From Escherichia phage ECOP18: DNA of 64,000 bases. The stretch lies in the sequence record NC_105825.1. One strand, written 5' to 3'. A program made the translations under genes and the position numbers. Below the pieces are notes generated by a model. It ran no database searches. It was not told the origin of the DNA and saw nothing but the letters and a program-made list of their open reading frames with translations. Positions 27,753-54,618 of the stretch are shown here, piece by piece (positions within the stretch are counted from its first letter, which is position 1; each line of letters opens with the position of its first letter).

Positions 27753-27782
27753 TCGTTAACTCCTTCATCAATTTATATAACT

Positions 27783-27812
27783 ATTATACCAGAAATTTAA
27801 AGCAAAAGGCAA
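27783..27812 (-). promoter_or_regulatory. early sigma70-type promoter (TTGCCT-18-TATAAT)
   Basis: Variant -35 and 18-bp spacer. Confidence 0.5.
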
Positions 27813-27842
27813 GTACATTTTTAAAAATTCTGTTTGGAGGAG

Positions 27843-28049: not shown

Positions 28050-28224
28050 GTTGTTTCTCCAGTTTCATGTTTAATAGTCTACAAATAAAATCAATGTCTT
28101 CATCTGTGCCTAGATCTCTATCTTCAAGAGTTGCCTTGAAGTTTTTCGTCAATTCCATGAGGATAACTTCTATAGAACGACGTGTTGGCGGAGGTGGATG
28201 TCTATACATCTTATTTCCTTAAGT

Positions 28225-28301
28225 TGGTAGGGGTGGTGGGATTCGAACCCACAAAACCTGAATTTTAAGTCCAGTACCTATGCCAATTCGATTACACCCC
28301 C
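28225..28301 (-). tRNA. tRNA, type I length, anticodon loop CTTAAAA (UAA)
   Basis: 77 nt; acceptor GGGGGTG/CACCCCT, anticodon stem CTGGA/TTCAG, T-arm GTGGG-TTCGAAT-CCCAC, CCA; Leu-type anticodon in a short-variable-arm scaffold. Confidence 0.45.
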
Positions 28302-28402
28302 ATGTAATCAGTTTATTAGTTGATACATATTATAGCCTAGTGAAAATCCTACTACTAGTCCCACAAACCAACCAATATAATAATCTTTTAGTTTCACAGG
28401 TA

Positions 28403-28588
28403 TTATCCTCGTTCAATATCTAGGGAAACACCGCAGTTAGGATTAATACCTGTACCGTTGCAATTTGAACAAATCCAGATATTGCAAAAAGTATCTCCTG
28501 CTTCTGCATCAGAACTTTCACCAATTCCCCTACACTCAGGGCAGGCACATTCTTCTAGCTCTTGCTTGAGTTCTTGAAACTTGGACAT
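28403..28588 (-). CDS. zinc-ribbon-like small protein
   Basis: 61 aa; CPECRG...CSNCNG. Confidence 0.45.
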   Translation of the reverse strand: MSKFQELKQELEECACPECRGIGESSDAEAGDTFCNIWICSNCNGTGINPNCGVSLDIERG

Positions 28589-28597
28589 ATAGTCTCC

Positions 28598-28786
28598 TTA
28601 GTCAATTACTTTTGAGGCTTCAAGGGAGTCGATATAGTATACGTTTTCTACCATAATCATATAATCTGCCACTTTATCCATAGCTTGGGCCTCAGAGGTA
28701 GCTCTGGCTAACCTATATCCTTTTTTATATTCATCCGGGTATTCTCTATCTTGAATAAATACAACATAAACTATGTATAATTCCAC
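28598..28786 (-). CDS. hypothetical protein
   Basis: ORF track frame truncated to a GTG start with RBS so it does not run into the tRNA at 28806. Confidence 0.35.
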   Translation of the reverse strand: MELYIVYVVFIQDREYPDEYKKGYRLARATSEAQAMDKVADYMIMVENVYYIDSLEASKVID

Positions 28787-28805
28787 TTGTAATCCCCTAA
28801 TTAAG

Positions 28806-28884
28806 TTGGTGGCTCCCCGAGGATTCGAACCTACGTACCTTCCGGTTATGAGCCGGGTGCTCATACCATATGAGCTTGAGAACC
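28806..28884 (-). tRNA. tRNA with CAT anticodon (third CAT tRNA)
   Basis: Acceptor GGTTCTC/GGGAGCC with G-U pairs, D-stem GCTC/GAGC, anticodon loop CTCATAA, T-loop TTCGAAT, CCA; T-stem weak. Confidence 0.45.
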
Positions 28885-28890
28885 AGAATT

Positions 28891-28979
28891 TGGCGGAAGA
28901 AGTGGGAATCGAACCCACAAGGCTATATTTCAAACCGACAGATTAGCAATCTGCTGCAATACCGTTATGCTATTCTTCC
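28891..28979 (-). tRNA. tRNA-Ser (GCT), type II
   Basis: 89 nt; acceptor GGAAGAA/TTCTTCC, anticodon stem GCAGA/TCTGT, loop TTGCTAA, CCA. Confidence 0.55.
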
Positions 28980-28994
28980 GAATTTATAAGATAT

Positions 28995-29023
28995 ATTATA
29001 TTAGAAATTTAGCTTCATAGCAA
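28995..29023 (-). promoter_or_regulatory. early sigma70-type promoter (TTGCTA-17-TATAAT) for a tRNA transcript
   Basis: Same architecture. Confidence 0.55.
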
Positions 29024-29522
29024 GAAAATTTTTCAAGTTTTCGGTAGACATCTCATCCACATCTACGGGAGAAACAAAGCCGTTTAATTTTCTAGCAAAT
29101 TTTTCACCCGCAGGATCGTTGTCTCCGACAGCTACCAATTTAAAAGGTAATAATTTCAGTTGCTTTAATAACGCTTTTCCTGGAGAAGAACCTAACATTG
29201 CCAGGGCTGGATAACCAGCGTTATGTAGCGCAACTGCCTTAAATACAGATTCAGCGATCAATACTACTTTTTCATCTCCATTGAGAGTTTCTAGTCCCCA
29301 TACACACTGGGTAGTAGAATAAGTAAAATATTTAGCTTCAAAGGGACACTTACTATGACCTTTTGGAGCAGAAGGATTATACGTCTGATAGCCTCGCAAC
29401 ATCCCGGAGAAGTCATACAACGGGACTGTTAGCCATCCTTCCGGACTTAACCAGCAATGATATTTATCTGTATCAAATCCTCTGGATAAGAGGTGCTGTG
29501 TTAGCTCATCAACATTCATATT
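29001..29522 (-). CDS. TOPRIM-domain-like protein
   Basis: ORF track frame; start moved to MNVDELTQ with RBS gagagg; LIAES...VGDNDPAG resembles the TOPRIM E...DxD motif. Confidence 0.4.
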   Translation of the reverse strand, partial: NMNVDELTQHLLSRGFDTDKYHCWLSPEGWLTVPLYDFSGMLRGYQTYNPSAPKGHSKCPFEAKYFTYSTTQCVWGLETLNGDEKVVLIAESVFKAVALHNAGYPALAMLGSSPGKALLKQLKLLPFKLVAVGDNDPAGEKFARKLNGFVSPVDVDEMSTENLKNFLAMKLNF

Positions 29523-29549
29523 TGGTTCCTCTCTCAAATTTATAGATAT

Positions 29550-29578
29550 ATTATACAGAGAATTTAGCATTCAAGCAA
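29550..29578 (-). promoter_or_regulatory. early sigma70-type promoter (TTGCTT-17-TATAAT)
   Basis: Same architecture. Confidence 0.6.
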
Positions 29579-29694
29579 TCAAATTTTTTAACTTTTTAGA
29601 GGAAAATCATAGGGCACTTAAGGGTAGCAGATAAGTGGGGAGGACCAAAATTTGTGACCCCACTAAAAATCCGGGGGCAATTTTTAAAGACCCC

Positions 29695-29723
29695 TTGACA
29701 TTTTCGCTGGGGTAGTGTAAAGT
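29695..29723 (+). promoter_or_regulatory. sigma70-like promoter TTGACA-17-TAAAGT (not the early-family type)
   Basis: Consensus -35, 17-bp spacer, weaker -10; about 60 nt upstream of the plus-strand island. Confidence 0.45.
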
Positions 29724-29785
29724 ATATGTTATGGATGAGTGATCAAAGAGACACACATTTTCTATATACTAGGAGGTGTCAAAAT

Positions 29786-30775
29786 ATGACAGAAGAAGTA
29801 GCTAAGAGTCCTGAGACCGTCGCTAGCGTTGCAGCAGAACTGCACCGTCACGAGGAATCAGATAAGAAAAAGTGGGAGAAGGTCAGAGTCTACGAAGAAA
29901 AACATCGTGAACACGATGATGAAGAAGAAGATGACGATGATGAACATTGTCATAAATATGGAAAACATAAAATGCAAGAACCAGTAAACGTATTCACTAG
30001 TGGCTTCCCTGGCCTACTGGGTGGTTACCCAGCAAACGCAGGTGCTTTCGGTGGTGAAGGTATGGGACTATTCGGAGCTATCCTAATCGGTGCTCTATTA
30101 ACCGGCGGATTCGGTGGTTTCGGTGGATTCGGTGGACGTGGTGTAGTTGGTGAAGGTACCGCAGTTGATGCAGTACTTCAGAACCAAGATACCGCTAGTA
30201 TTCTAGCAGCTATCAACACTACTCGTACAGAGGCTAACCAGGGTACTGGAGCTGTTTTAAGCGCAGTTAACAATGGTTTTAGCCAGACAACCCAAAACCA
30301 GAGCCGTGATACTCAGTCTGTACTAACTACGATCTACGGTACAGGTGCTAATCTGTCTAATCAGATCTGCCAGGAAACTCGCAACGTTATTCAGGGTCAG
30401 TTCGATCTTTCTCGCCAGATTGATCAATCTTTCGCAGCTAACCAGATAGCTCGTGCACAAGATAAGTTTGATTCTGCACAGATCGCTTTCCAGCAGACTT
30501 TACAAACTAATAACCAGTTTGCCGCTGTTCAGGCTCAGATGTGTGCTAACCAGAACTCTCTGGAACGTCAGATCGCTGAATGTTGCTGTGAACTTCAGAC
30601 TGCGATCGCTGGTGTAACTACTGCGCGTATCCAGGATGAGTTAGACGCATGTCGCCTACGTGAAGCAATCGCTGCGGGTAGCGGTGCTAACGGTCAGGTA
30701 ATTAATCAAATCGCTTTAAGTCTTGGTGCTATCACTCAGACTCTGGCTGGTCTGCAGGCTAAACTGCCGGCTTAA
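29786..30775 (+). CDS. low-complexity protein: acidic N-terminus, Gly-rich hydrophobic segment, Gln/Asn/Thr-rich C-terminal region
   Basis: ORF track frame; start at ATG preceded by RBS aggagg; GMGLFGAILIGALLTGGFGGFGGFGG glycine-zipper-like segment; no recognisable family. Confidence 0.55.
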   Translation: MTEEVAKSPETVASVAAELHRHEESDKKKWEKVRVYEEKHREHDDEEEDDDDEHCHKYGKHKMQEPVNVFTSGFPGLLGGYPANAGAFGGEGMGLFGAILIGALLTGGFGGFGGFGGRGVVGEGTAVDAVLQNQDTASILAAINTTRTEANQGTGAVLSAVNNGFSQTTQNQSRDTQSVLTTIYGTGANLSNQICQETRNVIQGQFDLSRQIDQSFAANQIARAQDKFDSAQIAFQQTLQTNNQFAAVQAQMCANQNSLERQIAECCCELQTAIAGVTTARIQDELDACRLREAIAAGSGANGQVINQIALSLGAITQTLAGLQAKLPA

Positions 30776-30796
30776 TATTAAGGGGAGGAGCCCCTT

Positions 30797-31213
30797 ATGA
30801 GTAAATATGGTTTTGTAAATAACGGACTTAATCAAAGTATGGGCTCCCAGCAGCCCATTCCGGGTCTGGATAACCCCTACTTACAACAGTTGCAACAGCG
30901 TTTAGCAGAAGCGCAACAGATGCAGCAACAACTCCAGCAAAACCCTGGAAGTGTGAGTCCTATGCAAATGATGCAGCAAATGAGCGGGCAGTCGCAAATG
31001 CCTCAACAAATGCAGCAACAGGTGCCTCAGCAGCAAGTTCAGCAACAAACCCAACAACCGCAGGTTTCTGCGGAAGGACAGGCAGTACTAGCCCTTTTCG
31101 AAGACTTCGCAAAGACAGAGGATGGGAAACAGCTTGTATCACTTATGGGTAAGTTTAATAGCTTCTGCCAAAGCCAAGTTGCAAAAGCTCAAAATGGGGG
31201 TAGTAACTCCTAA
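30797..31213 (+). CDS. Gln-rich low-complexity protein
   Basis: 138 aa; RBS ggggagg upstream; QQ tracts throughout. Confidence 0.5.
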   Translation: MSKYGFVNNGLNQSMGSQQPIPGLDNPYLQQLQQRLAEAQQMQQQLQQNPGSVSPMQMMQQMSGQSQMPQQMQQQVPQQQVQQQTQQPQVSAEGQAVLALFEDFAKTEDGKQLVSLMGKFNSFCQSQVAKAQNGGSNS

Positions 31214-31222
31214 GGAGGAAAT

Positions 31223-31417
31223 ATGTGTTGCAGAAAATCTGTTTCGTGCTGCCCAGTGCCTGTAGCACGTTGTTGCTCTCCAGCAATGTTTACGCAAATA
31301 CCGGCGTTCAATCCCTTTGCCTTTAAACCTACTCTTATCCTGCCCCCTAGAGTAGATTTTCAGTCAAGATTGGCCTCCCGTATGGGTGGTTGCTGTACAC
31401 CGAGAGTATGGTTCTAA
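31223..31417 (+). CDS. Cys-rich small protein with four CC doublets
   Basis: 64 aa; RBS aggagg; MCCRK...SCCPV...RCCSP...GCCTP. Confidence 0.45.
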   Translation: MCCRKSVSCCPVPVARCCSPAMFTQIPAFNPFAFKPTLILPPRVDFQSRLASRMGGCCTPRVWF

Positions 31418-31431
31418 ACCAAAAACAAAAG

Positions 31432-31466
31432 CCCCTGCCGAAAGGTAAGGGGCTTTTTCTTTTGCC
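31432..31466 (+). terminator. rho-independent terminator
   Basis: agcccct-gccgaaaggta-aggggct hairpin followed by ttttctttt. Confidence 0.65.
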
Positions 31467-31479
31467 TTAAATACAGAAA

Positions 31480-31510
31480 AGCCCGCGCTCTCGTAGGAAA
31501 CGCGGGCTTG
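31480..31510 (-). terminator. rho-independent terminator (convergent)
   Basis: cccgcg...cgcggg hairpin followed by a U-run on the minus transcript after the SPFH gene. Confidence 0.55.
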
Positions 31511-31532
31511 GTTCGAAGATTACGTGTAACTA

Positions 31533-32480
31533 TTACTTGTTACGCATATCCATGATCATTTGACCATCGTAGCCAGTACCTACCACAGTCTGAGGTACAC
31601 CACCTTGATACTTCTGAGCACGGATCATTTCAACTTCCAGTTGTTTCCAACGAATCATTTCAGGAGTAATGGTACGTTGCAATGCGGCGTTAGCTTCAGC
31701 TTCTTTCTTAGCTGCGTACAGTTTAGCATCTGCGTCACGTTCATTAGCAATAGCTTGGTTGTTACGAGCTTCACGATCTGCTTCTGCTTGTTTAACTTTT
31801 TGCTGTGCTTCCTGTTCAACGCGAGCAAGTTCAGCTTTCGCAGCATTAACTTGCTCTTCACGAACTTTGGTATTCTGTACCTGTTCCATGATTACTGGCG
31901 GCAAGGTAATATCCTGAAGGAATACCTGCTTAACTGTGTAACCATATGGGCGCGCATACTCTTCAACTTCCTGTTGAATTGCAGTTTGCAATTGAGCCTG
32001 AATTTTAGCATCAAATAAATCTTGTGCTTTAGGTACAGACTTACCAAACTCACGAATAGTAGACAGTAATTTTTCAGTTACATACTTGTCTAGTGCCTGA
32101 TCCTGAGTACCTGCGTTAATACGGTTAATCGGTGCTTTAGAACCATCAAACTGCAACATAACAGTCAGGTCAACAGTGGATTTAAACTTATCCTGGCTAG
32201 GAACCTGAAGTTTATCTAATTTTACAGCAATATCTTTTGTACTAAAAGTATCGAAAGATGCAAACGGGTTTACAAGATGGAAGCCCGGCAATACTGGATT
32301 AGGGTCTACTTTACCCAGGAATGTTTGGGTTTTAACCGTACCATCAGAAACAATAGTATATGAATTAAAAGCTAGGATTAAACCTGCTAAACCAACTACA
32401 GCACCAATACCCCAACGTTTAATAGTACGAATTACTTTCTGCTCAGAAGTCAGTTCTTTCATATTTTTAGTAGCAAACAT
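31533..32480 (-). CDS. SPFH/band-7 (stomatin/prohibitin/HflKC-like) membrane protein
   Basis: 315 aa; N-terminal TM helix, then an Ala/Gln/Glu-rich coiled-coil region typical of SPFH proteins; assigned by overall architecture. Confidence 0.5.
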   Translation of the reverse strand: MFATKNMKELTSEQKVIRTIKRWGIGAVVGLAGLILAFNSYTIVSDGTVKTQTFLGKVDPNPVLPGFHLVNPFASFDTFSTKDIAVKLDKLQVPSQDKFKSTVDLTVMLQFDGSKAPINRINAGTQDQALDKYVTEKLLSTIREFGKSVPKAQDLFDAKIQAQLQTAIQQEVEEYARPYGYTVKQVFLQDITLPPVIMEQVQNTKVREEQVNAAKAELARVEQEAQQKVKQAEADREARNNQAIANERDADAKLYAAKKEAEANAALQRTITPEMIRWKQLEVEMIRAQKYQGGVPQTVVGTGYDGQMIMDMRNK

Positions 32481-32513
32481 ATATTTCCTTTGTTTTAGTT
32501 ACAGTTAATAAAA

Positions 32514-32589
32514 TTGGCCGAGGTGACAGGATTCGAACCTGCATAAAGGAATTTAGAAGACTCCTGCCTCTCCCTTAGACTACACCCCG
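32514..32589 (-). tRNA. tRNA-Arg (TCT)
   Basis: 76 nt; acceptor CGGGGTG/CACCTCG, anticodon stem GGAGT/ATTCC, loop CTTCTAA, T-loop TTCGAAT, CCA. Confidence 0.5.
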
Positions 32590-45481: not shown

Positions 45482-45673
45482 CTACAATTTTAAATAAGCC
45501 TATGATATTGCATTTAAATAAAAAATTTGCTTGCTTTTAACGTGAGATGTGTGATACTAGATAATCATTTTATATCGCGTGCACGAGTGCGTGATTATAC
45601 AATTTTTAATAGAGATTGGCAAATAAAATTTTTTGACTCAGATCATGTTACAGAACTTTATAGTAAAATATTG

Positions 45674-45702
45674 TTGACATCCGCCCTCGAATGAGTTATA
45701 AT
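45674..45702 (+). promoter_or_regulatory. sigma70 promoter TTGACA-17-TATAAT for nrdD
   Basis: Perfect consensus hexamers, 17-bp spacer, about 30 nt upstream of the nrdD ATG. Confidence 0.65.
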
Positions 45703-45731: not shown

Positions 45732-47606
45732 ATGAATCGCAATGAAGAACTAAAGTATAAAGAAATGCAGGCGTTAATTAGAAACTGCAAAGAGATTATC
45801 GAAGGGTCAGCAGATGAAGAGCTGCTGTTTAATAATGCCAATAAACCCTCAGAACGTTTCCCTACACAAAGGGATATGCTTGCAGGTGAATTGAGTAAGT
45901 ATCTGATTCTAGAAGAAATGCCCATTCAGATTCGAAATGCTCATATGATTGGAGATATTCATTTCCATGATGCTGACTATGCTGCATTAGGTATGACTAA
46001 CTGTTGTCTGGTAGCTCTGGAAGATATGTTGAAGAATGGTATGAAGGTTGGTAATGCTGAAATTAGCACTCCAAACTCTATCACTACTGCGGCAGCTATT
46101 ACAGCTCAGATTATCACTCAGGTTAGCTCCCATCAGTATGGTGGTACTTCTGTAGATCGCCTTGATGAAGTATTAGCCCCTTATGTTCGTAAATCCTATG
46201 ACAAAAATCATGCGTTTGCAAAACGTTGGACTAAGGATGAAGCCAAAGCATCCGTAATGGCTACGGAGATGACTGAAAAAGAAGTCTATGATGCTTGTCA
46301 GGGTCTAGAGTATGAAATCAATACGATGTTCAACTCTAATGGTCAGAGTCCATTTATTACCTTTGGTTTTGGTCTAGGGACTTCTTGGGAAGCACGTCTA
46401 GTACAGAAAGCAATACTGAAAGTACGTATGGATGGCTTAGGCATCAATAAACGTACAGCTATCTTTCCGAAACTGGTGTTTGTTCTGCGTGATGGCGTAA
46501 ATATGAAGCCAGGAGATGTTAATTATGACGTCAAGAAGTTAGCTATGAAATGTACTGCTGAACGTATGTATCCAGATTATATCAGCTATGATAAGGTTGT
46601 AGAAGTTACTGGGGACTATAAAGTTTCTATGGGCTGCCGTTCATTCCTAGCTGCTACAGAAGATGGTGAAACTGCCGGTCGTAATAACTTAGGTGTTGTT
46701 TCTGTAAACTTGCCTAGAATTGCTATCGAAGCTGAAGGAAATATTGACCTATTCTTTGATTTGCTTGAGCTACGTGTAGATACAGCATTAAAAGCGTTGG
46801 AGTGGAGAGTTGATCGCTTAAAATACATTCAAGCTAAAGCTGCACCCATCCTCTATATGTCAGGAGCCTTTGGGTTACGTTTGGGGCCTGATGAATATGT
46901 ATTCGATCATTTCTATAACCGTGCTTCTGTATCTCTAGGGTATATTGGTTGCCATGAAATGCTACAGTTCATGTTTGGCAAAGATGTAGACACAATGTCC
47001 GAGACCTGCATCAAGTTTGTTCAGCGTGTATTGCAGTACATGCGGGATAGAGTCGATCAGAAGAAGGAAGAAACTAAGTTAGGTTATAGCCTGTATGCTA
47101 CACCATCAGAATCCCTATGTGACCGTTTTTGTCGTCTAGACCGTGAATACTTCCCGGAGCATGAAGATATTCTGTCCAAAGGATACTACACTAACTCTCA
47201 CCACCTTGATGTAGAACGTAAAGTTGCTCCCAATGTGAAATTTGATTATGAATCTAACTTTACGCCGATTGCTTCTGGTGGATGTATTTCCTATGTAGAA
47301 CTACCGGATATGAAACGATTCCCAGATGCACTGGAATGGGTTATTAATTATGCTGCTAGTAAGGTTCATTACTTCGGTATTAATACTCCAGTGGATTCTT
47401 GTGGTAAATGTGGATTCTTAGGTGAAACAATAGCATCCGAAGATGGGTTTAAGTGCCCTATCTGTGGTAATCATGACCCTGAAACTCTTGAAGTAACTCG
47501 TCGAGTTTGTGGGTATCTTGGAAATCCGGGTGCTCGTCCATTTAACCCCGGCAAACAGCACGAGGTTATGGGCAGAGTGAAACATCAGGATATTCGAGCT
47601 AAATAA
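45732..47606 (+). CDS. nrdD: anaerobic ribonucleotide reductase (class III)
   Basis: 624 aa; C-terminal Zn-ribbon cysteines (CGKCGF...CPICG) and glycyl-radical motif RRVCGYLG. Confidence 0.8.
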   Translation: MNRNEELKYKEMQALIRNCKEIIEGSADEELLFNNANKPSERFPTQRDMLAGELSKYLILEEMPIQIRNAHMIGDIHFHDADYAALGMTNCCLVALEDMLKNGMKVGNAEISTPNSITTAAAITAQIITQVSSHQYGGTSVDRLDEVLAPYVRKSYDKNHAFAKRWTKDEAKASVMATEMTEKEVYDACQGLEYEINTMFNSNGQSPFITFGFGLGTSWEARLVQKAILKVRMDGLGINKRTAIFPKLVFVLRDGVNMKPGDVNYDVKKLAMKCTAERMYPDYISYDKVVEVTGDYKVSMGCRSFLAATEDGETAGRNNLGVVSVNLPRIAIEAEGNIDLFFDLLELRVDTALKALEWRVDRLKYIQAKAAPILYMSGAFGLRLGPDEYVFDHFYNRASVSLGYIGCHEMLQFMFGKDVDTMSETCIKFVQRVLQYMRDRVDQKKEETKLGYSLYATPSESLCDRFCRLDREYFPEHEDILSKGYYTNSHHLDVERKVAPNVKFDYESNFTPIASGGCISYVELPDMKRFPDALEWVINYAASKVHYFGINTPVDSCGKCGFLGETIASEDGFKCPICGNHDPETLEVTRRVCGYLGNPGARPFNPGKQHEVMGRVKHQDIRAK

Positions 47607-47614
47607 GCTAATCA

Positions 47615-47647
47615 GCCGGGTTGCTAGTCGACCTGGCTTTTATTTTA
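47615..47647 (+). terminator. putative terminator after nrdD
   Basis: agccgggt...acctggct imperfect hairpin followed by ttttatttt. Confidence 0.4.
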
Positions 47648-47705: not shown

Positions 47706-47987
47706 ATGAGCGAGTTGCTTCCTAAAGTAGATGTCTCCCATCTTGGAGAGCCTAGTGAAGAACGTAAGGCTCTAGATTGGTTGGGTGGATTTGATTATCG
47801 TCGTGTTGTTGCAACATGGAATGATAAGAAAGTTAAGAAGTTTCGGGTACATTATGTAGGTAAAGACAAGTGGCTCTGGATTGATTATGAAGAATCGAAG
47901 GGATCTACTAAGGCTGTGAAAATTTATCGTATGTATGGGTATTATTATGCCCACTGTGATAAGAATGAATTTACAGTACAGAACTAA
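47706..47987 (+). CDS. hypothetical protein
   Basis: ORF track 93 aa. Confidence 0.55.
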   Translation: MSELLPKVDVSHLGEPSEERKALDWLGGFDYRRVVATWNDKKVKKFRVHYVGKDKWLWIDYEESKGSTKAVKIYRMYGYYYAHCDKNEFTVQN

Positions 47988-47996
47988 GGAACAAGA

Positions 47997-48200
47997 ATGA
48001 AAAACGTAAAACATCTTAAATATCGCTTAATTTACAACGGACGTATGGAAACAGAAGACCTGGCCCAGTTAGCTATTAATTCTAATGAGGTTACAGTGCG
48101 TGCGCTGGCAATTGAAAAGTTGCGTGCCTCTTATGAAAATCGTGTTATGGAATTGGAGGAGAAACTTTATGGCATTCTCGAAGCCGATGCTACCAGATAA
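47997..48200 (+). CDS. hypothetical protein
   Basis: ORF track 67 aa. Confidence 0.45.
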   Translation: MKNVKHLKYRLIYNGRMETEDLAQLAINSNEVTVRALAIEKLRASYENRVMELEEKLYGILEADATR

Positions 48201-48390
48201 GGGTTTAAACGCCGCTTTGGAAAACGCATTAATGCAGCACTGGGAAACTGGTTATAAGGATGGTGTTGAATCCTGCGCTACTATGTTAGAAGTTATTGCT
48301 AATACCTTAATGGAGAAAGGCAATAAAGAATTAGCTGAGCTATTAGACAGTATTGGGCAAAACTTCAGAGAACAGGTGAAAAATGCGTAG
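48169..48390 (+). CDS. hypothetical protein
   Basis: ORF track frame; start moved to MAFSKP with RBS ggaggag. Confidence 0.4.
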   Translation: MAFSKPMLPDKGLNAALENALMQHWETGYKDGVESCATMLEVIANTLMEKGNKELAELLDSIGQNFREQVKNA

Positions 48391-49210
48391 ATTAATTATT
48401 ATTAGCGGTGCAGGTTTGAGTGTTGAAAGTGGTGTACGAGCTTTTCGTACTGATACTGCTAGTGGTAAAGCACTGTGGGATGATTATGATCTAGAAGAAG
48501 TATGTAATATTCATGCCTTTCGTGGTAATTTTTATCATAAAACCCATATGTTTTACAACAAGCGTCGTGAAGAGCTAAAAACTGTTGAACCCAATCTTGC
48601 ACATTTGCGTATTGGTGAATGGTATAAACAATATCCAGGTCAAGTAGTAAACTTGACTACCAATGTTGATGACCTTATTGAACGTGCAGGCGTTCCACAT
48701 AGCGACATTCTGCACATTCACGGATATTTAAAAGAGGTTGTTGTAGCTGACAGCTACAATAGTAGTAATAAACGAATTATTGATGTTGGGTATAACTCTA
48801 TTGACCCAGATGATTATAAATGGGTTAAACCTAATGTAATCTTCTTTGGTGAGCATGCTCCAGCATATACAGAAATGTACAATGTTTTTGATGGTATTAC
48901 CAGTCAAGATATGATCATTGTGGTTGGTTGCTCTAACCAAGTAATTAACTTCTACTGGGAATTATTTCCTGTTCTTAATTTGACTGCTGCCAAATTAATG
49001 GTAGTTAACTACTATGATAGTGCCCTAGCGACAGAGCCAGGCTATCAAGGTATGACTCGTAGTGAGATGTACCAGTTGGAAGAACGCGGTGTCCCTTACT
49101 GGAGTAAAGGTGCGGTAGATGCTTTCAGTGATCCTGATTTTATTGCTCGTGTGGAAGCTCATTTAGAGGGTAGACCTTATATGCTGGGGAACAGACATGT
49201 CCATAGTTAA
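48383..49210 (+). CDS. Sir2-family (NAD-dependent) protein
   Basis: 275 aa; N-terminal IIISGAGLSVESGVRAFR matches the Sir2 GAG(I/L)S.ESG(I/V).(T/A)FR NAD-binding motif. Confidence 0.6.
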   Translation: MRRLIIISGAGLSVESGVRAFRTDTASGKALWDDYDLEEVCNIHAFRGNFYHKTHMFYNKRREELKTVEPNLAHLRIGEWYKQYPGQVVNLTTNVDDLIERAGVPHSDILHIHGYLKEVVVADSYNSSNKRIIDVGYNSIDPDDYKWVKPNVIFFGEHAPAYTEMYNVFDGITSQDMIIVVGCSNQVINFYWELFPVLNLTAAKLMVVNYYDSALATEPGYQGMTRSEMYQLEERGVPYWSKGAVDAFSDPDFIARVEAHLEGRPYMLGNRHVHS

Positions 49211-49379
49211 ATCTGTGTATACACATCCTGATGATATATTTGTATGGGCGGACGGTAGTTGGTGCTATCGCTGTGAGCTGTGGGAAATGGACTATAAATC
49301 CGATGACTATGGTGTTATATATGTTGATACGGTTGAGTATGATACGTTCTTAGAAAGGAACAAAGATGGAAATAAGTAA
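49197..49379 (+). CDS. hypothetical protein
   Basis: ORF track 60 aa. Confidence 0.4.
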   Translation: MSIVKSVYTHPDDIFVWADGSWCYRCELWEMDYKSDDYGVIYVDTVEYDTFLERNKDGNK

Positions 49380-49872
49380 TACTCCAATTATTTTTCTAGA
49401 CATTGATGGGGTGCTCAATTCGAGCATCTCCCACCATCATGCACCTGATGATGAAAAGATTTTCTTTGGAAGTGATTGGGTTTTCAAACCGCTTCTCAAG
49501 GCTTTTCAAGACTTTATTCGTTCTTCTCCAATAATGATTGTTGGGGTATCTTCATGGTTCTCTGTCAGGAATGAGATGGAGAACGTTCAGATTATGACCG
49601 GATTAGATCTTATCAATCGTTTTATTGGTACAACGGATTTTACTGGTGGTGGGCTATCTAGGGGTAATTCTGTTCTTCGCTTCGTTGAAAAGCATAAGCT
49701 CAAACATTGGTGTGTGCTGGATGATGCTGGTGCTATGATGTATCAGTACCCAACGGTTATAGTCAATGGTAGAACTGGAATAAACCTTCAAGATTTAAGA
49801 GCTGTTAGCTATATGTTAGAATTTAGTCCAGATCTTGAAATGTGTAAAGCTCTACAACAACTTAAGGTGTAA
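49366..49872 (+). CDS. HAD-superfamily phosphatase-like protein
   Basis: 168 aa; N-terminal FLDIDGVLN (DxDGV motif I). Confidence 0.5.
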   Translation: MEISNTPIIFLDIDGVLNSSISHHHAPDDEKIFFGSDWVFKPLLKAFQDFIRSSPIMIVGVSSWFSVRNEMENVQIMTGLDLINRFIGTTDFTGGGLSRGNSVLRFVEKHKLKHWCVLDDAGAMMYQYPTVIVNGRTGINLQDLRAVSYMLEFSPDLEMCKALQQLKV

Positions 49873-49874
49873 AT

Positions 49875-50300
49875 ATGTTCAATAATGTATTTTCTAAAGC
49901 TAACCCAATTTTGGTTAATTTTTGGCGTACTCTTCCAGCCAACCTGTATAATGAGGCTATTAACTCTTTGAAAATATGGTGTGAGAATAACGAAATCTCC
50001 TTTGCTTTTAAAGATGATATTGATGAGGCCCCTTGTATTGGTTTAATTGTTCAGGTAGAGGAGGGTCTTGAAGAGATTGTGGGCTGGAAAGAGTTAGACG
50101 AAATGGGCTTAGTTTTTGCGTTAAATTATAAGCTGTTTATGCCTGCTAAGCATCGCCTTGTTGTTAACTATAAAACTAGTGAATCTCCTGGTTTTCAGGT
50201 TAATGAACGTTATGGTTGGTCTTACTCACCGGAAGAAGTAAATGAGGGGATTCAGAAACTTCGACGTTTCGGGTATATGATCCCAGGTTTAACTGCTTAA
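49875..50300 (+). CDS. hypothetical protein, paralog A
   Basis: 141 aa; shares P/CIG, MGL(I/V)xALN(F/Y) and (I/M)PGL(N/T) segments with the next ORF. Confidence 0.55.
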   Translation: MFNNVFSKANPILVNFWRTLPANLYNEAINSLKIWCENNEISFAFKDDIDEAPCIGLIVQVEEGLEEIVGWKELDEMGLVFALNYKLFMPAKHRLVVNYKTSESPGFQVNERYGWSYSPEEVNEGIQKLRRFGYMIPGLTA

Positions 50301-50309
50301 GGAGGCAGA

Positions 50310-50702
50310 ATGGAACAAGTATATTGGCGTCAGATTGATCCTAGTTTGGTGAAGCGTGCGGAGAAGCTGCTACAACGTTGGTTGGGGGTAAGACAAGCCT
50401 CCTTCACTTTTCCGGAGCAGCAAATAGACGATCCCTGTATTGGTGTTTTCCTATCAGGCTACGCTAGGGAATGGGAATTGGATTGGAATGAGTTGTCTGC
50501 TATGGGTTTAATTGTTGCCCTAAATTTCTCTTTGTTACACCCACGTGGTTTGGCTATATGTCGTGTGCCCGATGATGGTTGTTCGCCCCATCTTTTACAG
50601 GTGGAAGATGATATTTTGGAGTACACTCCAGATATTCTCAAAGAAGCTAAAGAACAATTAAACCGTGTTGGGATCTATGTTCCAGGCCTGAATGATGAAT
50701 GA
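50310..50702 (+). CDS. hypothetical protein, paralog B
   Basis: 130 aa; tandem paralog of 49875-50300. Confidence 0.55.
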   Translation: MEQVYWRQIDPSLVKRAEKLLQRWLGVRQASFTFPEQQIDDPCIGVFLSGYAREWELDWNELSAMGLIVALNFSLLHPRGLAICRVPDDGCSPHLLQVEDDILEYTPDILKEAKEQLNRVGIYVPGLNDE

Positions 50703-50793
50703 TTTTTATTAGCTGAACTTTGTAATCCGGGCTATTAGTGCTCGGATTATTACATAATCTTTTCAGTCGATTGACAGTCAAAATAAATTGTCG

Positions 50794-50822
50794 TTGACAA
50801 TTTGGATGGATTATGTAATAAT
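50794..50822 (+). promoter_or_regulatory. sigma70-like promoter (TTGACA with an AT-rich -10 region)
   Basis: TTGACA at 50794 and also at 50771; -10 register ambiguous (TGTAATAAT). Confidence 0.4.
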
Positions 50823-50841
50823 ATATGTATTGGAGGTGAGG

Positions 50842-51294
50842 ATGTCATTCACACAGCAAGAACTTTTAGATAACTTCCGATATGAAGATGGTAAGTTATT
50901 TAGAACTACAGGAAGAAATGCAGGGAAAGAATGTTGTGTTTCTACGGGTAACGGATATTACCGTATATCTCTAGGGAATAGGACTATGCTTCGGCATAGA
51001 GCAATATTTTTAATGCACCATGGATACTTACCTGATTTAGTAGATCATGTGAACACTATAAAAGGTGATGATCGTATTGAAAATCTTAGAGAGCAGACGG
51101 TATCCGGTAATCTAAGAAATATCAAATACAAGAAAGGAATGCATGTTTACCCTTCTGGTAGTAAGAACTGGCAAGTAGTATTTACTATTAACCGTAAACG
51201 GATAGTTAAAGGAACATATGACAACTATGAGGTTGCATGTTCTATGGCCAAGATGTTTAGAGGTCAATTATACGGTAGGGAATCAATCCAGTAA
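50842..51294 (+). mobile_element. HNH homing endonuclease (free-standing)
   Basis: ORF track frame, start moved to MSFTQQ with RBS ggaggtgagg; HRAIFLMHHGYLPDLVDHVNTIKGDDRIENL is the same motif family as 9185-9598. Confidence 0.6.
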
Positions 51295-51299
51295 AATTT

Positions 51300-51828
51300 C
51301 ATTTGCAAGGGAGTATTATTTTATAGTATAATATTCCCATAAATGAGAGACATTAGTAAAAATTGATTTTGCTAATTTTTCTTGTTTACAATCCGCGATA
51401 CGGAACAGTTAGGCTGCCCCATTAAGGGTTGTTTTAACTGTTACGTGTTAGTTTTTAAACAAATAATTAATAGAATACTTAGCGATCTACATCCCGTAGG
51501 AACCCTGGTAAGGCCTCGAAGCAACCTAGTGTGAGGTGGTTGTGAAGTGAGACGGGAAGAGTGAAAAACTCTGAGAAGTGATGACGTAAGGTATACTGCA
51601 TCTAGTATGAGCTAGTACATGAAGCATTAGGTGAGCAAATCTGGCTTAGCGGCCATCCTCAAGGATTTGTGCGGTATAGTGAAGCGGCAGTGTAGCGTGA
51701 AAGGGGAAGTTGCCACCCCCCTTCAGTATTTGCGATTAATTGTTGAGAAATTGACAGTAACAGTTGTTCTATTCTTTCTGAATAGTCCTAAAGAAAACTT
51801 ATTTCATATCCAACACAGGAGTATTGTT
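51300..51828. other. 530-bp ORF-poor region, GC-richer than its surroundings
   Basis: No RBS-preceded ORF; several GC hairpins; sits between the HNH gene and the large helicase gene. Confidence 0.4.
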
Positions 51829-54618
51829 GTGTTCTCAATCCTACAAGGTCATGCAGGATTTCATCGTGATTTAGCCACAGGCAATTGGCGAGAAGTTAAA
51901 GCAGAAGACTATCTTTTTGCTAAAAGATTTTCCTCAAAGCATCCTGAAGGTAAACCAGCTTCAATGCCCTTCAAGTTTGATGTAATTGATGAAGTTGATC
52001 CTCAAACCCTAGTAGAAATGCTTCCTCTTATGAGACGTTTAACGTCTGACCCTCATATCGTTGCGGTACGAGGTCGATGTCTTGCACCTAAAAATAATGT
52101 GCGACGTAAGAAGGGCAACTTTAATGTATCTAACCCAAGTCATATAATCGCAATGGATGTGGATGGTATTGTAGATACAGGTGGTTGTAACAAGTTTGAT
52201 CTTGTTGGCATGGCTCGACATATTATTAGAATGTTAAATAGTATTAGTGAGGATATGTTCCCTCTTGATGCAGGGTTTATCGCTCATGCATCGTCTTCGG
52301 CTGGGCTAAAACCAGGTATCCGAATGCACTTAATACTAGAATCTAATGTTAAAGTAACTCAGGGTCAAATCAAATTCTTATTTACATCTATCAACGAAAG
52401 TAGTAGACAAAAGTATGGCTTTGATATTGCCGACTTAGCTTATTACTCTTCCGTACAGCTTCATTATTTTGCAGATCCGTTATTTATCGATGGTATAGTA
52501 GATCCGTTTAAAGCGGAGGGTGCTTCACGTCTGGTATTTGTTAAGGGTTCTAAAGTAAATTTACCCAATAATCTGGTTGACTATGAAACAACTAGAGGAG
52601 AGTTTAAAGAGGAGTTCTACTCCTTACTCGATCAAATTAAAGGTAAAAAGGCTGCCTCTGATAAAGTAGAAGAAACCATCAGCGAGTTAGAAGAAGCCGA
52701 GGATGGAGTGTATCTACGTATTATTCCTAAACTCTATCACAGAGCTTTAGAGGATGGTGTTGATTTTGCATGGCTAGAAAAAGAAATCCGCCCAGCCTTA
52801 TCAGAATATATTGCAACTAAAGATAATAGTCGTAATATTCAAGACTACTTTAATAACGGTCGTAAACAGGCTCTGAAAGCGTTTGTTAATAATTCTAAAC
52901 GCGATATACCTGATGTTTTAAAAGGTATTCCACTTAAAAAGCTAGAAACTAATTCTCTAGAAACTGATAACTTCTTGAAATTAAACACTGTACCACCAGA
53001 AGGTTATATGACTTTTGTAAAAGCAAGTCTAGGTACAGGTAAAACTACGGCGGTTGTGCGTTGGTTGGATTCAGGAGTTATTAAAGGTAATTTCTTAGCA
53101 ATTACCAATACTCGAGCACTGGTATCTTCAAATGCTAAGAAATTTAGTGCAGGACAATATGATAAGTCTGTAGATATGCTTAATTTTAAGCGTGGTGCTA
53201 TTGACCGTATGTCCACAACTATTCACTCTTTGCATAAATTCAAGAGTTTTATTGGTCAAATTGACGCAATCTTTATCGATGAATGTGATGCAGTAATGAA
53301 TGACCTATTATTCGCCCCGGTTGTTAAGCAACGTCGCGAGTGTATTCAGGTTCTTAGGGATATTCTTGCAACTGCAAAAATCATTATATTATCCGATGGT
53401 GATATTAGTGCGGAAACAATTGAAGCATATGGTTCTTTGATTGAGTTCGATAAACCAGTTGCATTCTATAATCATCACCGTAAGATGCTGTCAAAAGCTC
53501 ATGCTTATGAGTTCCCTGATGAATCCAGTATTTGGGTTGCACTTCAGACTTCTCTAGAGATGGGTGAGAAATCTATTCTAGTATCTGATTGTGGTCCTGA
53601 TGAGCTGAATGAGAAGGGTATGGCACTACGTCGTAATACTGGTGCGTTAGTTAAGGAAATCCATTCAAACTCCACCTCAGATGTGGATATTCGACGTATT
53701 CTGGATTATACAACTAATGAGCTAATTGATCAACAAATTGATTGCTTATTATGTAGTCCATCCGTAACGAGTGGCGTTGACTTCAACTATTTCGATAATG
53801 TATTTGTTATTACTAGAACCAGTAATCAAGCGCCAAACATGCGTTTTCAAGCAATCAGGCGCGACCGTGGTGCTCAGAACATCTATTATTTTATTGATAA
53901 ATCCACAAGTGGATTCTCCGCAGGTTCTGAACAATATAACATTGATGAGGGTTGGCTGGAGTTAGCACAGCAATTATACGCACGTCGTAGGGAGCTGGAA
54001 TCTAGGAACTATACTAGTACTTTACGTTATTACTTGCTTGATCAGGGTGCAACTATTGATATTTTCAGCGAAAGCTGGGGAACTATTGAAGGTGCTGGTA
54101 AAGAGTACACAGAAGAGCGAATCAAAGCTATTCTGCACTCAACTCCTGATTATTGTGCTCCACGTCATGCGGATGCGTATGAGGCTAAACTACTTCTTGT
54201 TCGCTATTATCATCTTGGGTCTATTAAAGATGTAACAGTTGAGCATGTTGAACAATATATCAAAGATAAACCGAATGATCGAGCTGCATTCTTCCATAAG
54301 ATGCACGAGATGTTCTGGGAAGATATTAAGAAGTGTTCAAATGTTACTATCAAACCATTCATAGAAGCTCTGAAAGGTAAGAAGAAAGATTTCTTCCTTA
54401 AAACAGGTCAGAGTGCTAACCCAAAATATGCTAGAATGTATCTTGGTATGATGGGTATTGGTAAGGATATGAACACTGAAAATATTGTAGACTGGTACAG
54501 AACCTATTGTAAAATCGAGTGTATGCCAATTCCTTATAAGTTCATGACTGACGAGGAAAAACATATGCATGATGAAGCAATGTCAGAGCTAGGTGCTAGA
54601 AATGACAGTGAAGAATAA
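51829..54618 (+). CDS. SF2-type helicase / putative replication-origin-binding protein
   Basis: ORF track frame, start moved to GTG after RBS aggag; Walker A SLGTGKTT and DECD box (IFIDECDAV); about 929 aa. Confidence 0.6.
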   Translation: MFSILQGHAGFHRDLATGNWREVKAEDYLFAKRFSSKHPEGKPASMPFKFDVIDEVDPQTLVEMLPLMRRLTSDPHIVAVRGRCLAPKNNVRRKKGNFNVSNPSHIIAMDVDGIVDTGGCNKFDLVGMARHIIRMLNSISEDMFPLDAGFIAHASSSAGLKPGIRMHLILESNVKVTQGQIKFLFTSINESSRQKYGFDIADLAYYSSVQLHYFADPLFIDGIVDPFKAEGASRLVFVKGSKVNLPNNLVDYETTRGEFKEEFYSLLDQIKGKKAASDKVEETISELEEAEDGVYLRIIPKLYHRALEDGVDFAWLEKEIRPALSEYIATKDNSRNIQDYFNNGRKQALKAFVNNSKRDIPDVLKGIPLKKLETNSLETDNFLKLNTVPPEGYMTFVKASLGTGKTTAVVRWLDSGVIKGNFLAITNTRALVSSNAKKFSAGQYDKSVDMLNFKRGAIDRMSTTIHSLHKFKSFIGQIDAIFIDECDAVMNDLLFAPVVKQRRECIQVLRDILATAKIIILSDGDISAETIEAYGSLIEFDKPVAFYNHHRKMLSKAHAYEFPDESSIWVALQTSLEMGEKSILVSDCGPDELNEKGMALRRNTGALVKEIHSNSTSDVDIRRILDYTTNELIDQQIDCLLCSPSVTSGVDFNYFDNVFVITRTSNQAPNMRFQAIRRDRGAQNIYYFIDKSTSGFSAGSEQYNIDEGWLELAQQLYARRRELESRNYTSTLRYYLLDQGATIDIFSESWGTIEGAGKEYTEERIKAILHSTPDYCAPRHADAYEAKLLLVRYYHLGSIKDVTVEHVEQYIKDKPNDRAAFFHKMHEMFWEDIKKCSNVTIKPFIEALKGKKKDFFLKTGQSANPKYARMYLGMMGIGKDMNTENIVDWYRTYCKIECMPIPYKFMTDEEKHMHDEAMSELGARNDSEE

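What the first reader, a model, noticed from the sequence alone, without database searches (positions are those of the whole stretch)
48383..50702. Sir2-like protein, HAD-like protein and a tandem paralog pair between nrdD and the HNH gene
A Sir2-family NAD-binding motif is followed by an ORF with a HAD DxDGV motif and then two adjacent paralogous ORFs (49875-50300 and 50310-50702) that share several segments. Sir2 domains are common in NAD-depleting defence systems, so a phage-encoded Sir2 next to other small-molecule enzymes is a candidate counter-defence or NAD-metabolism module.
Basis: partly seen in the sequence, partly recalled or inferred. Interest (0 to 1): 0.55.

Follow-up and report, generated by a model that had tools for sequence, protein, structure and literature searches.

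The report
T5 phage sirtuin–phosphatase accessory operon
This is the well-conserved, already annotated early-gene cluster of T5-like phages that encodes a zinc-less sirtuin, a cap-less HAD phosphatase and two small orphan proteins. It has been predicted, but never shown, to mend RNA cut by host defences, and some natural phages do without it.

Summary
The window is a Tequintavirus (T5-like) genome. Positions 48383-50702 carry the equivalents of T5.102-T5.107: a Sir2 protein, a 60-aa ORF, a HAD phosphatase, and two tandem paralogs (30% identical, E 5e-17).

- **Sir2:** it is not a defence-type NADase. It belongs to a phage-only clade nearest CobB/SIRT5 sirtuins. All NAD-binding and catalytic residues are kept, including the class-III Y-x-x-R motif. 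The four zinc cysteines are missing.
- **HAD:** it belongs to the cap-less "Swiss-army-knife RNA repair" family (HAD_SAK_2), not to a small-molecule type.
- **Prior work:** this exact neighbourhood, typified by phage SP15 (94% identical to the window), was described by Iyer et al. 2022. They predicted NAD-dependent RNA-end repair, with Sir2 acting like KptA/Tpt1.

My survey supports the RNA link. The same Sir2 clade sits in an Rnl1 ligase-cREC-kinase-Sir2 cluster in rV5-like phages. However, T5-like genomes have no RNA ligase, and four natural phages have lost Sir2, the 60-aa ORF and the catalytic end of HAD.

The paralogs are DUF7415 proteins. They have no known fold relative and no catalytic signature, and their relatives occur in mixed genomic contexts. 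Their function is unknown.

Verdict: already known, function untested, modest interest.

The parts
45732..47606 (+). nrdD (anaerobic ribonucleotide reductase). It is an upstream neighbour with its own consensus promoter (45674-45702) and a terminator-like hairpin (47614-47638).
   Evidence: T5.099 with annotated promoter and terminator
47706..47987 (+). Small ORF (93 aa), first gene of the packed string. Function unknown (phrog_7953).
47997..48200 (+). Small ORF (67 aa). Function unknown (phrog_5236).
48169..48390 (+). Small ORF (about 73 aa from MAFSKP...; the mechanical ORF starts at 48085). Function unknown (phrog_5827). It overlaps the Sir2 start by 8 nt. Its N-terminus is the 5' partner of the natural deletion fusion.
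48383..49210 (+). Zinc-less, class-III-like sirtuin (T5.102 equivalent). Key residues: G9-A-G-x-S13, S16-G17, F21-R22, Y58/R61/R62, N94, D96, H113-G114, F154-F155-x-E157, G182-x-S184, N209.
49197..49379 (+). Conserved 60-aa ORF (phrog_5116) with a W-x-D/N-G-S-W-C-Y-R motif. It overlaps both neighbours by 14 nt. A homolog follows Sir2 in Klebsiella phage Sugarland.
49366..49872 (+). Cap-less HAD phosphatase of the HAD_SAK_2 family (T5.105 equivalent). Motif I D12/D14, motif II S62/S63, motif III R99, motif IV D119/D120.
49875..50300 (+). DUF7415 paralog A (141 aa, T5.106 equivalent). This is the more diverged copy.
50310..50702 (+). DUF7415 paralog B (130 aa, T5.107 equivalent). It is closer to the family consensus (DWNELSxMGL...LHPxGLA).
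50723..50749 (+). Imperfect hairpin (TAATCCGGGC-loop-GCTCGGATTA) just after paralog B. It lies at the position where T5 and Sugarland have an annotated terminator, so it is the likely end of the operon.
50842..51294 (+). HNH_3 homing endonuclease with its own promoter (50794-50822). It is absent from T5 proper and is not part of the module.

Best explanation
The region is the distal part of an eight-gene early operon of a T5-like phage (equivalents of T5.100-T5.107). The operon is accessory and dispensable.

Its two enzymes most likely form an NAD+-dependent module that heals RNA ends, aimed at RNA (for example tRNA) cut by host nucleases.
- The cap-less HAD phosphatase would remove terminal 2'/3' phosphates from cut RNA.
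- The zinc-less sirtuin would use NAD+ to remove a 2'-phosphate as Tpt1/KptA does. The phosphate oxygen attacks C1'' of NAD+, nicotinamide leaves, and the His113-activated ribose 2''-OH releases ADP-ribose-1'',2''-cyclic phosphate.
- Sealing would have to be done by a host ligase, because T5-like genomes have no RNA ligase.

The two DUF7415 paralogs are probably non-catalytic binding proteins of a phage-only fold. They are kept as an A/B pair and may form a heterodimer. Their link to the enzymes is loose.

Shown here: the identities, the intact catalytic motifs, the fold class, the gene contexts and the dispensability. Inferred: the substrates and the joint function.
For: - Published prediction: the same neighbourhood, with SP15 as prototype, was predicted to be RNA repair in PMC9503650. 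SP15 is 93.9% identical to the window.
- Sir2 competence: the NAD-binding and catalytic residues are invariant across a clade of 23 phage sequences.
- Sir2 context elsewhere: proteins 50-65% identical lie in a metallophosphatase-Rnl1 ligase-cREC-P-loop kinase-Sir2 cluster in rV5-like phages. In an IMG/VR sample of 51 loci, 13 were rV5-like and 11 of those had Rnl1. One jumbo contig had RnlA next to Sir2. That gene set mirrors the Trl1 + Tpt1 pathway, which is established knowledge.
- HAD-Sir2 linkage: the two genes stay adjacent after a change of gene order in Erwinia phage KEY.
- HAD and RNA ligase: HAD_SAK-like genes lie two genes from RnlA in Aeromonas T4-like phages.
- Accessory role: four natural phages lose Sir2, orf60 and the catalytic part of HAD in one deletion.
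- RNA theme: the phage carries 21 tRNA genes.
Against: - No experiment exists, and no sirtuin is known to act on RNA.
- A complete T5-like genome has no Rnl1 or cREC homolog and no annotated RNA ligase.
- The host ligase RtcB would not need 2'-phosphate removal (established knowledge).
- The Sir2 keeps features typical of protein deacylases: the FGE loop and the class-III Y-x-x-R motif.
- Outside Demerecviridae, 30 HAD_SAK-like loci have no Sir2 within 8 kb.
- Sugarland keeps Sir2 without an adjacent HAD.
- Relatives of DUF7415 sit in unrelated contexts.
Confidence: 0.38

Rival explanations
1. A pair of enzymes that erase post-translational modifications. The sirtuin would be a CobB/SIRT5-like lysine deacylase, preferring acidic acyl groups such as succinyl. 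The cap-less HAD would be a protein phosphatase. Together they would reset the modification state of host or phage proteins early in infection, for example Acs, ligases or metabolic enzymes.
For: - The closest solved relatives are the CobB, Sir2Af1/2 and SIRT5 deacylases.
- NCBIfam's best hits are deacylase models.
- Y58/R61 align with the Y-x-x-R pair that reads succinyl or malonyl groups in CobB and SIRT5, and the peptide-binding FGE loop is invariant.
- Skliros et al. 2016 proposed Acs deacetylation for zinc-less phage sirtuins (PMC5107563).
- In rV5-like phages, Sir2 is always directly followed by a DNA ligase, an enzyme that works through a lysine-adenylate.
Against: - All NCBIfam deacylase scores lie far below the family cutoffs (100 bits against 243-395).
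- The zinc module that shapes the peptide cleft is missing.
- This reading does not explain the recurring placement next to RNA ligase, cREC and kinase genes.
- The host already has CobB.
Confidence: 0.27
2. One reading: an NAD-metabolism or anti-NADase counter-defence module. The Sir2 and HAD would act on NAD+, ADP-ribose or signalling nucleotides to blunt Thoeris, DSR or Sir2-HerA systems.
For: - Sir2 binds NAD+, and phages are known to fight NAD+-depleting defences (PMC13464706).
- In rV5-like phage Ro1, a PRPP-synthetase-like gene and a NADAR gene lie within 6 kb of the Sir2 cluster.
Against: - A sirtuin consumes NAD+ rather than restoring it.
- There is no similarity to PADLOC defence Sir2 models.
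- The known NARP pathways use other enzymes (Adps/Namat, Nampt/Nmnat, PnuC/NadR). None of these families appears among the Pfam hits for the nine ORFs from 47706 to 51294.
- The HAD lacks the cap domain that small-molecule HADs use to enclose their substrate.
Confidence: 0.07
3. No joint function. The genes are unrelated accessory cargo that happen to be inherited together in the variable stretch between nrdD and the replication genes of Demerecviridae.
For: - The components come apart: KEY has HAD and Sir2 but no DUF7415 or nrdD.
- Sugarland has Sir2, orf60 and the A/B pair but no HAD.
- The four deletion phages (Shivani, SHSML-45 and two others) keep only the DUF7415 pair.
- Single-unit DUF7415 genes sit next to nrdD/nrdG, NudE, RnlA or P2 gpA.
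- An HNH homing gene is inserted nearby in some genomes only.
Against: - Sir2 and HAD remain adjacent across about 40-60% protein divergence and a change of order.
- The genes overlap by 8-14 nt, which suggests translational coupling.
- Sir2 and the catalytic half of HAD are lost in a single event.
Confidence: 0.2

Closest known systems
Sirtuin + 'Swiss-army-knife' HAD neighbourhood of Escherichia phage SP15 / T5 genes T5.102-T5.107 (Iyer, Burroughs, Anantharaman & Aravind 2022, PMC9503650; T5 genome annotation)
   Same: The genes, their order and their sequence are the same (93.9-95.5% nucleotide identity to SP15, MM-1 and other Tequintaviruses). The window is simply another member.
   Different: Nothing substantive differs. 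This genome has an HNH homing endonuclease after the operon that T5 proper lacks.
E. coli CobB / human SIRT5 (class III sirtuin deacylases)
   Same: Rossmann NAD-binding motifs, the catalytic Asn, Asp and His, the FGE loop, and the Y-x-x-R pair.
   Different: All four zinc-ribbon cysteines are absent across the clade. The TQNID Gln is replaced by an invariant Thr. Scores lie far below the CobB family cutoffs. The clade is phage-only, and no activity is known.
Tpt1/KptA RNA 2'-phosphotransferase with the Trl1-type heal-and-seal pathway
   Same: The proposed chemistry matches: NAD+-dependent removal of a 2'-phosphate through ADP-ribosyl transfer. In rV5-like phages the gene company (RNA ligase, kinase, cyclic-phosphate enzyme) also matches.
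   Different: The fold is unrelated (a sirtuin Rossmann fold, not an ART fold). No ligase or kinase partner is present in T5-like phages. The activity is hypothetical.
Cap-less (C0) HAD phosphatases: T4 Pnk phosphatase domain, MDP-1, Scp1/Fcp1
   Same: The four HAD motifs, the absence of a cap, and so an open active site suited to macromolecular ends.
Defence-associated Sir2 NADases (ThsA, DSR1/2, Sir2-HerA, SPARSA)
   Same: Only the Sir2 superfamily fold and NAD+ binding.
   Different: No PADLOC model hit. There is no sensor or partner domain. The gene is carried by a lytic phage in an early operon.

Membership tests
Sirtuin (Pfam SIR2, PF02146) | Profile match above the curated cutoff | tested here: met
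   88.4 bits against a cutoff of 24, covering 178 of 180 profile positions
Sirtuin (Pfam SIR2, PF02146) | NAD-binding GAGxS...SGIxxFR loop, catalytic Asn/Asp (xNxD) and catalytic His (HG) | tested here: met
   G9-A-G-L-S13, S16-G17, F21-R22, N94, D96 and H113-G114 are invariant in 23 clade members. The Gln of TQNID is Thr.
Sirtuin (Pfam SIR2, PF02146) | Zinc-ribbon small domain with four Cys ligands | tested here: not met
   There is no Cys between H113 and K149 in the window protein, and no conserved Cys there in any clade member. The same was noted for Vibrio phage sirtuins (PMC5107563).
Class III sirtuins (CobB/SIRT5 deacylases) | Y-x-x-R pair that reads acidic acyl groups, and equivalog-level sequence similarity | tested here: inconclusive
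   Y58 and R61 are invariant and align with the CobB FYNARR segment. All NCBIfam CobB models score far below their cutoffs.
Class III sirtuins (CobB/SIRT5 deacylases) | NAD+-dependent lysine deacylase activity | not testable with these tools
   This needs an enzyme assay.
Defence Sir2 NADases (Thoeris ThsA, DSR, Sir2-HerA, pAgo-Sir2) | Match to defence Sir2 profiles, and fusion to or pairing with a sensor or partner (SLOG, HerA, pAgo, large DSR domains) | tested here: not met
   No PADLOC hit at E 0.01 or better. The protein is a single 275-aa domain with no such neighbours.
HAD superfamily / HAD_SAK_2 (PF18143) | Profile match above cutoff and the four catalytic motifs (DxD; S/T; K/R; DD) | tested here: met
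   76 bits against a cutoff of 27.5. D12, D14, S62/S63, R99, D119 and D120 are invariant in 15 sequences.
HAD superfamily / HAD_SAK_2 (PF18143) | Cap-less (C0) architecture | tested here: met
HAD superfamily / HAD_SAK_2 (PF18143) | Company of RNA-repair domains (ligase, kinase) in the same protein or locus | tested here: not met
   No Rnl1, cREC or kinase homolog was found in the window or in the complete genome of relative JLBYU40. An Rnl1-type ligase (RnlA) is nearby only in Aeromonas T4-like phages.
Tpt1/KptA RNA 2'-phosphotransferase | ART-fold catalytic domain | tested here: not met
   The protein is a Rossmann-fold sirtuin. Only a functional analogy is proposed (PMC9503650).
DUF7415 (PF24187) | Profile match above cutoff | tested here: met
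   Whole proteins score 121.5 and 106.9 bits. Each half alone scores 70.5, 55.1, 59.4 and 51.8 bits against a cutoff of 27. My own profile-profile test of N-terminal against C-terminal halves was negative, so the internal repeat is not independently confirmed.
Phage NAD+ reconstitution pathways (NARP1/2/3) | Adps+Namat, Nampt+Nmnat, or PnuC+NadR enzymes | tested here: not met
   None of these families is among the Pfam hits for the nine ORFs scanned between 47706 and 51294. The NARP3 components are as described in PMC13464706.

The most novel reading that the evidence does not exclude
The phage sirtuin clade may be the first sirtuin that acts on nucleic acid. It would be an NAD+-dependent RNA 2'-phosphotransferase that has replaced Tpt1/KptA, working with a cap-less HAD RNA-end phosphatase. 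The conserved DUF7415 A/B pair, an orphan phage-only fold, and the 60-aa ORF would be its RNA- or target-binding subunits. Together they would form a new kind of anti-defence RNA-repair complex that borrows a host ligase.
Probability: 0.25. Interest if true: 0.7.

Novelty: already known. Interest (0 to 1): 0.3.

Why it matters
If the published prediction is right, these genes would show sirtuin chemistry applied to RNA ends. They would also add a repair arm to the way T5-like phages cope with tRNA-cutting host defences, alongside their large tRNA sets. T5-like phages are common in therapeutic cocktails. One cocktail phage, Shivani, naturally lacks the enzymes, so knowing what the module protects against has practical value. 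As a finding in this scan, however, it is a re-sighting of a cluster present in hundreds of sequenced phages and already discussed in the literature.

Tried and rejected
- **DUF7415 and the anaerobic reductase.** I considered that the DUF7415 pair belongs with nrdD. It lies downstream of nrdD in T5-like phages and between nrdD and nrdG in Klebsiella and Morganella T4-like phages. I rejected this as a general rule. In 80 IMG/VR loci with single-unit relatives, only 2 are next to nrdD. Another 45 are next to P2-type gpA, 8 near NudE and 3 after RnlA.
- **An internal duplication in DUF7415.** The Pfam model hits both halves of each protein. My own single-unit HMM and hhalign do not link the halves, so I left this as inconclusive.
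- **An RNA ligase in T5-like genomes.** tblastn with two Rnl1-type ligases, cREC and the kinase found nothing.
- **Other searches.** The Rfam search of the region found nothing. A literature search for DUF7415 found nothing. Searches for experimental work on phage sirtuins returned only predictions.
- **NARP3.** I checked whether NARP3 of T5-like phage Bas30 overlaps these genes. It does not; it consists of PnuC and NadR.
- **A wide DUF7415 alignment.** It was too diverse for the search for related loci, so I split it.
Full report
**What the window is.** Megablast of 48000-51300 finds 445 phage records. The best are 95.5% identical (Escherichia phage vB_EcoS_MM-1), and SP15 is 93.9% identical. 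All are Tequintavirus / Demerecviridae, that is, T5-like phages. The layout is the T5 early region:
- nrdA and phoH on the minus strand;
- then, on the plus strand, nrdD, a run of small genes, and the replication-origin-binding gene.

The window also carries 21 tRNA genes.

**Check of the observation.**
- **Sir2:** ORF 48383-49210 (275 aa) matches Pfam SIR2 (7e-25) and PHROG 2162 (2e-121).
- **HAD:** ORF 49366-49872 (168 aa) has FLDIDGVLN and matches PF18143, described as 'HAD domain in Swiss Army Knife RNA repair proteins' (4e-21).
- **Paralogs:** ORFs 49875-50300 and 50310-50702 are paralogs (30% identity over 124 aa, E 5e-17). Both match DUF7415.
a conserved 60-aa ORF (49197-49379, phrog_5116) lies between Sir2 and HAD. 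Three small ORFs lie upstream (47706-48390).

The eight genes overlap or abut: overlaps of 8, 14 and 14 nt, and gaps of 2 and 9 nt. T5's own annotation places a terminator after nrdD, a promoter before T5.100 and a terminator after T5.107. The window has the matching hairpins at 47614-47638 and 50723-50749. The HNH gene (50842-51294) has its own near-consensus promoter and is absent from T5 proper.

**The Sir2.**
- Its nearest solved relatives are E. coli CobB (1.4e-17), the Archaeoglobus Sir2 proteins and SIRT5. No defence-type Sir2 appears among the 60 matches listed.
- PADLOC gives nothing.
- The NCBIfam CobB models hit, but far below their cutoffs (100 bits against 243 or more).
- Homologs 50-98% identical come only from phages or phage contigs: T5-like, rV5-like/Mydovirus, Erwinia and Serratia phages.
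- Across 23 diverse members the following are invariant: the NAD loop (GAGxSxxSG..FR), N94, D96, H113-G114, the FF-x-E substrate loop, G-x-S and N209.
- Y58/R61 are also invariant. They align with the CobB/SIRT5 Y-x-x-R pair, whose role in reading acidic acyl groups is established knowledge.
- No member has the zinc-ribbon cysteines, and the TQNID Gln is Thr.

The enzyme looks catalytically competent but atypical. The lack of zinc in phage sirtuins was already noted by Skliros et al. 2016, who listed T5 and proposed protein (Acs) deacetylation (PMC5107563).

**The HAD.**
- All four HAD motifs are invariant in 15 homologs down to 35% identity.
- The AF2 model is confident (pLDDT 94, pTM 0.91). 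It shows a bare Rossmannoid core with the flap hairpin and no cap.
- There is no sequence-level PDB hit.

**What is already published.** Iyer, Burroughs, Anantharaman and Aravind (Viruses 2022, PMC9503650, section 3.7.3) describe a distinct phage sirtuin clade in three neighbourhood types:
1. jumbo phages, with 2H, Nudix, cREC and PIN genes;
2. rV5/Mydo-type phages, with a T4-like RNA ligase, cREC, a kinase and MazG;
3. [quoted passage not shown]

They propose that the sirtuin removes RNA 2'-phosphates as KptA/Tpt1 does. The window belongs to type 3. I found no experimental test in the held library.

**Independent look at the contexts.**
- **Ro1 (rV5-like):** the order is metallophosphatase ... 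Rnl1 ligase - cREC - AAA_33 kinase - Sir2 - DNA ligase.
- **IMG/VR sample of 51 Sir2-clade loci**:
  - 23 are the T5 arrangement (PhoH | NrdD - Sir2 - orf60 - HAD - DUF7415 x2);
  - 3 are variants: My1 with one DUF7415, one locus without HAD, and one with HAD plus a metallophosphatase;
  - 13 are rV5-like, of which 11 have Rnl1;
  - 1 jumbo contig has RnlA next to Sir2;
  - 11 have neighbours I could not name, namely DUFs and one nucleoside deoxyribosyltransferase-like gene.
- **Erwinia phage KEY:** the order is HAD - 118 aa - Sir2, with no nrdD and no DUF7415. The HAD-Sir2 adjacency therefore survives a rearrangement.
- **Klebsiella phage Sugarland:** the order is nrdD - 70 aa - Sir2 - orf60 homolog - DUF7415-A - DUF7415-B - terminator, with no HAD.
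- **HAD_SAK-like genes in 30 other viral contigs:** none has a Sir2 within 8 kb.
- **Aeromonas T4-like phages:** a HAD_SAK-like gene, denA, RnlA and a single-unit DUF7415 lie in a row.
- **A complete T5-like genome (JLBYU40):** it has no annotated RNA ligase and no tblastn match to Rnl1-type ligases or cREC. It does have a split NAD-dependent DNA ligase.

**Dispensability.** One IMG/VR T5-like genome (L129, which is Shigella phage SHSML-45) lacks window positions 48244-49554. The deletion fuses the first 29 codons of the small ORF in frame to HAD residues 65-168. It removes Sir2, orf60 and HAD motifs I and II, and it keeps the DUF7415 pair. The same junction is present in Salmonella phages Shivani, vB_Sen_SG_WM_RUS_R2 and vB_SLGBLB0002. 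The enzymes are therefore accessory. The remnant ORF is labelled 'Sir2' in RefSeq, as is T5.105 (the HAD), and phrog_18062 carries the same label. This label is an annotation error: the phrog_18062 profile is covered end to end by the HAD C-terminus and has only a weak partial match to the real Sir2.

**The DUF7415 pair.**
- **Rarity:** an exhaustive profile search of 1.84 billion representatives finds only 56 relatives.
- **Shape of the family:** many relatives are 60-110-aa single units built on the motif DWNELSxxGL..IN..ILHPxGLA..RDxxTGxS. A few are fused to other regions, for example a thymidylate-kinase-like domain.
- **No catalytic signature:** there is no invariant acidic or histidine constellation. 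Only W17, G56 and G78 are invariant across 21 sequences.
- **Age of the duplication:** the A/B duplication is old. Window A matches Sugarland's 133-aa protein (6e-23) better than it matches window B, and window B matches Sugarland's 131-aa protein (1e-20). The two copies are thus kept as a pair, which suggests a heterodimer; this is an inference.
- **Contexts of single units:** they are mixed, namely between nrdD and nrdG, near NudE, after RnlA, and most often beside P2-type gpA.
- **Literature:** no paper mentions the family.

**Mechanism.**
- *Best-supported reading (confidence about 0.38):* the published one. The HAD and Sir2 heal phosphorylated RNA ends left by host nucleases, and Sir2 performs Tpt1-like chemistry. 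That chemistry is plausible for a sirtuin. Both reactions start with an oxygen nucleophile attacking C1'' of NAD+, and both then use the neighbouring ribose 2''-OH, which the sirtuin His activates (established mechanisms; the transfer to RNA is inference). The rV5-like gene set (ligase + kinase + cyclic-phosphate enzyme + Sir2) mirrors Trl1 + Tpt1.
- *Weak points for T5-like phages:* they have no ligase, and the host ligase RtcB does not need 2'-phosphate removal.
- *Main rival (about 0.27):* a pair of protein-modification erasers, a deacylase plus a protein phosphatase. This fits the nearest structural relatives of both enzymes.
- *Simple co-inheritance without a joint function (about 0.2):* cannot be excluded.

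**Verdict.** The feature is a known, widely sequenced and already discussed gene cluster whose function is still untested. Two things here were absent from the literature I could search: the characterisation of the DUF7415 A/B pair as a conserved orphan-fold pair, and the natural Sir2-HAD deletion. Neither changes the class of the finding.

Noticed in passing
window 48244-49554 (absent in L129 = Shigella phage SHSML-45; also Salmonella phages Shivani, vB_Sen_SG_WM_RUS_R2, vB_SLGBLB0002): A natural in-frame deletion removes the 3' part of the small ORF that ends at 48390, all of Sir2 and orf60, and the first 63 codons of HAD (catalytic motifs I and II). It fuses the small ORF's first 29 codons to the HAD C-terminus, and the DUF7415 pair is retained. 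It shows that the enzymes are dispensable in viable phages, including one used in a therapeutic cocktail.
   Followed up: yes
window 49366-49872; T5.105 in NC_005859; phrog_18062: The HAD gene and its truncated remnant are labelled 'Sir2 (NAD-dependent deacetylase)' in RefSeq and PHROG-based annotations. This is why many records show 'Sir2 x2'. The phrog_18062 profile is covered end to end by HAD residues 77-168 (1.8e-56). It has only a weak partial match to the real Sir2 (2.2e-06), so the label is an error.
   Followed up: yes
L027 3995-4213 (Klebsiella phage KpV477); L029 2953-3348 (Morganella phage Rgz1): In two T4-like genera a DUF7415 gene sits exactly between nrdD and nrdG and overlaps nrdD. 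In T5-like phages the DUF7415 pair also lies downstream of nrdD. A wider sample (2 of 80 loci) shows this is not general, but a link to the anaerobic reductase in these lineages remains unexplained.
   Followed up: partly
L045-L114 (IMG/VR contigs of about 30-38 kb); L032 2992-3465 (Vibrio phage yong1): Most single-unit DUF7415 genes (45 of 80 loci) lie beside the P2-type replication initiator gpA in P2-like temperate phages. T5's own annotation notes similarity of T5.106 to an 'ORF91'. The domain is therefore shared between lytic and temperate phages.
   Followed up: partly
window 29726-31213 (+ strand): Two low-complexity ORFs, one Gly/Gln/Ala-rich (349 aa) and one Gln-rich (138 aa), lie on the opposite strand to their neighbours. 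They sit in a locally GC-rich stretch (0.47 against about 0.39) between the tRNA cluster and an SPFH/Band-7-like gene. Function unknown.
   Followed up: no
window 50794-51294: An HNH_3 homing endonuclease with its own near-consensus promoter (TTGACA-17-AATAAT with an upstream TG) is inserted after the operon. It is present in this phage, JLBYU40 and SP15 but absent from T5 proper, so it is an insertion polymorphism.
   Followed up: partly
window 45594-45702: Promoter-like sites point in opposite directions between phoH and nrdD. One is a perfect 12/12 sigma-70 consensus match (45674-45702, + strand) and the other an 11/12 match on the minus strand (45622-45594).
   Followed up: no
window 21240-32589 (- strand): 21 tRNA genes are clustered here, including tRNA-Lys(UUU), two tRNA-Gln, two tRNA-Met and two tRNA-Leu. 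They are relevant background for any model based on tRNA cleavage or repair.
   Followed up: no
L003 1-209 and 12608-12777 (Raoultella phage Ro1): In the rV5-like relative, a PRPP-synthetase-like gene and a NADAR gene lie within about 6 kb of the Rnl1-cREC-kinase-Sir2 cluster. In that lineage, NAD/ADP-ribose metabolism genes are thus near the sirtuin.
   Followed up: no
window 51631-54618: The mechanical ORF for the replication-origin-binding protein (995 aa, GTG start) is longer at its N-terminus than the annotated homologs (928-954 aa). The true start is probably downstream.
   Followed up: no
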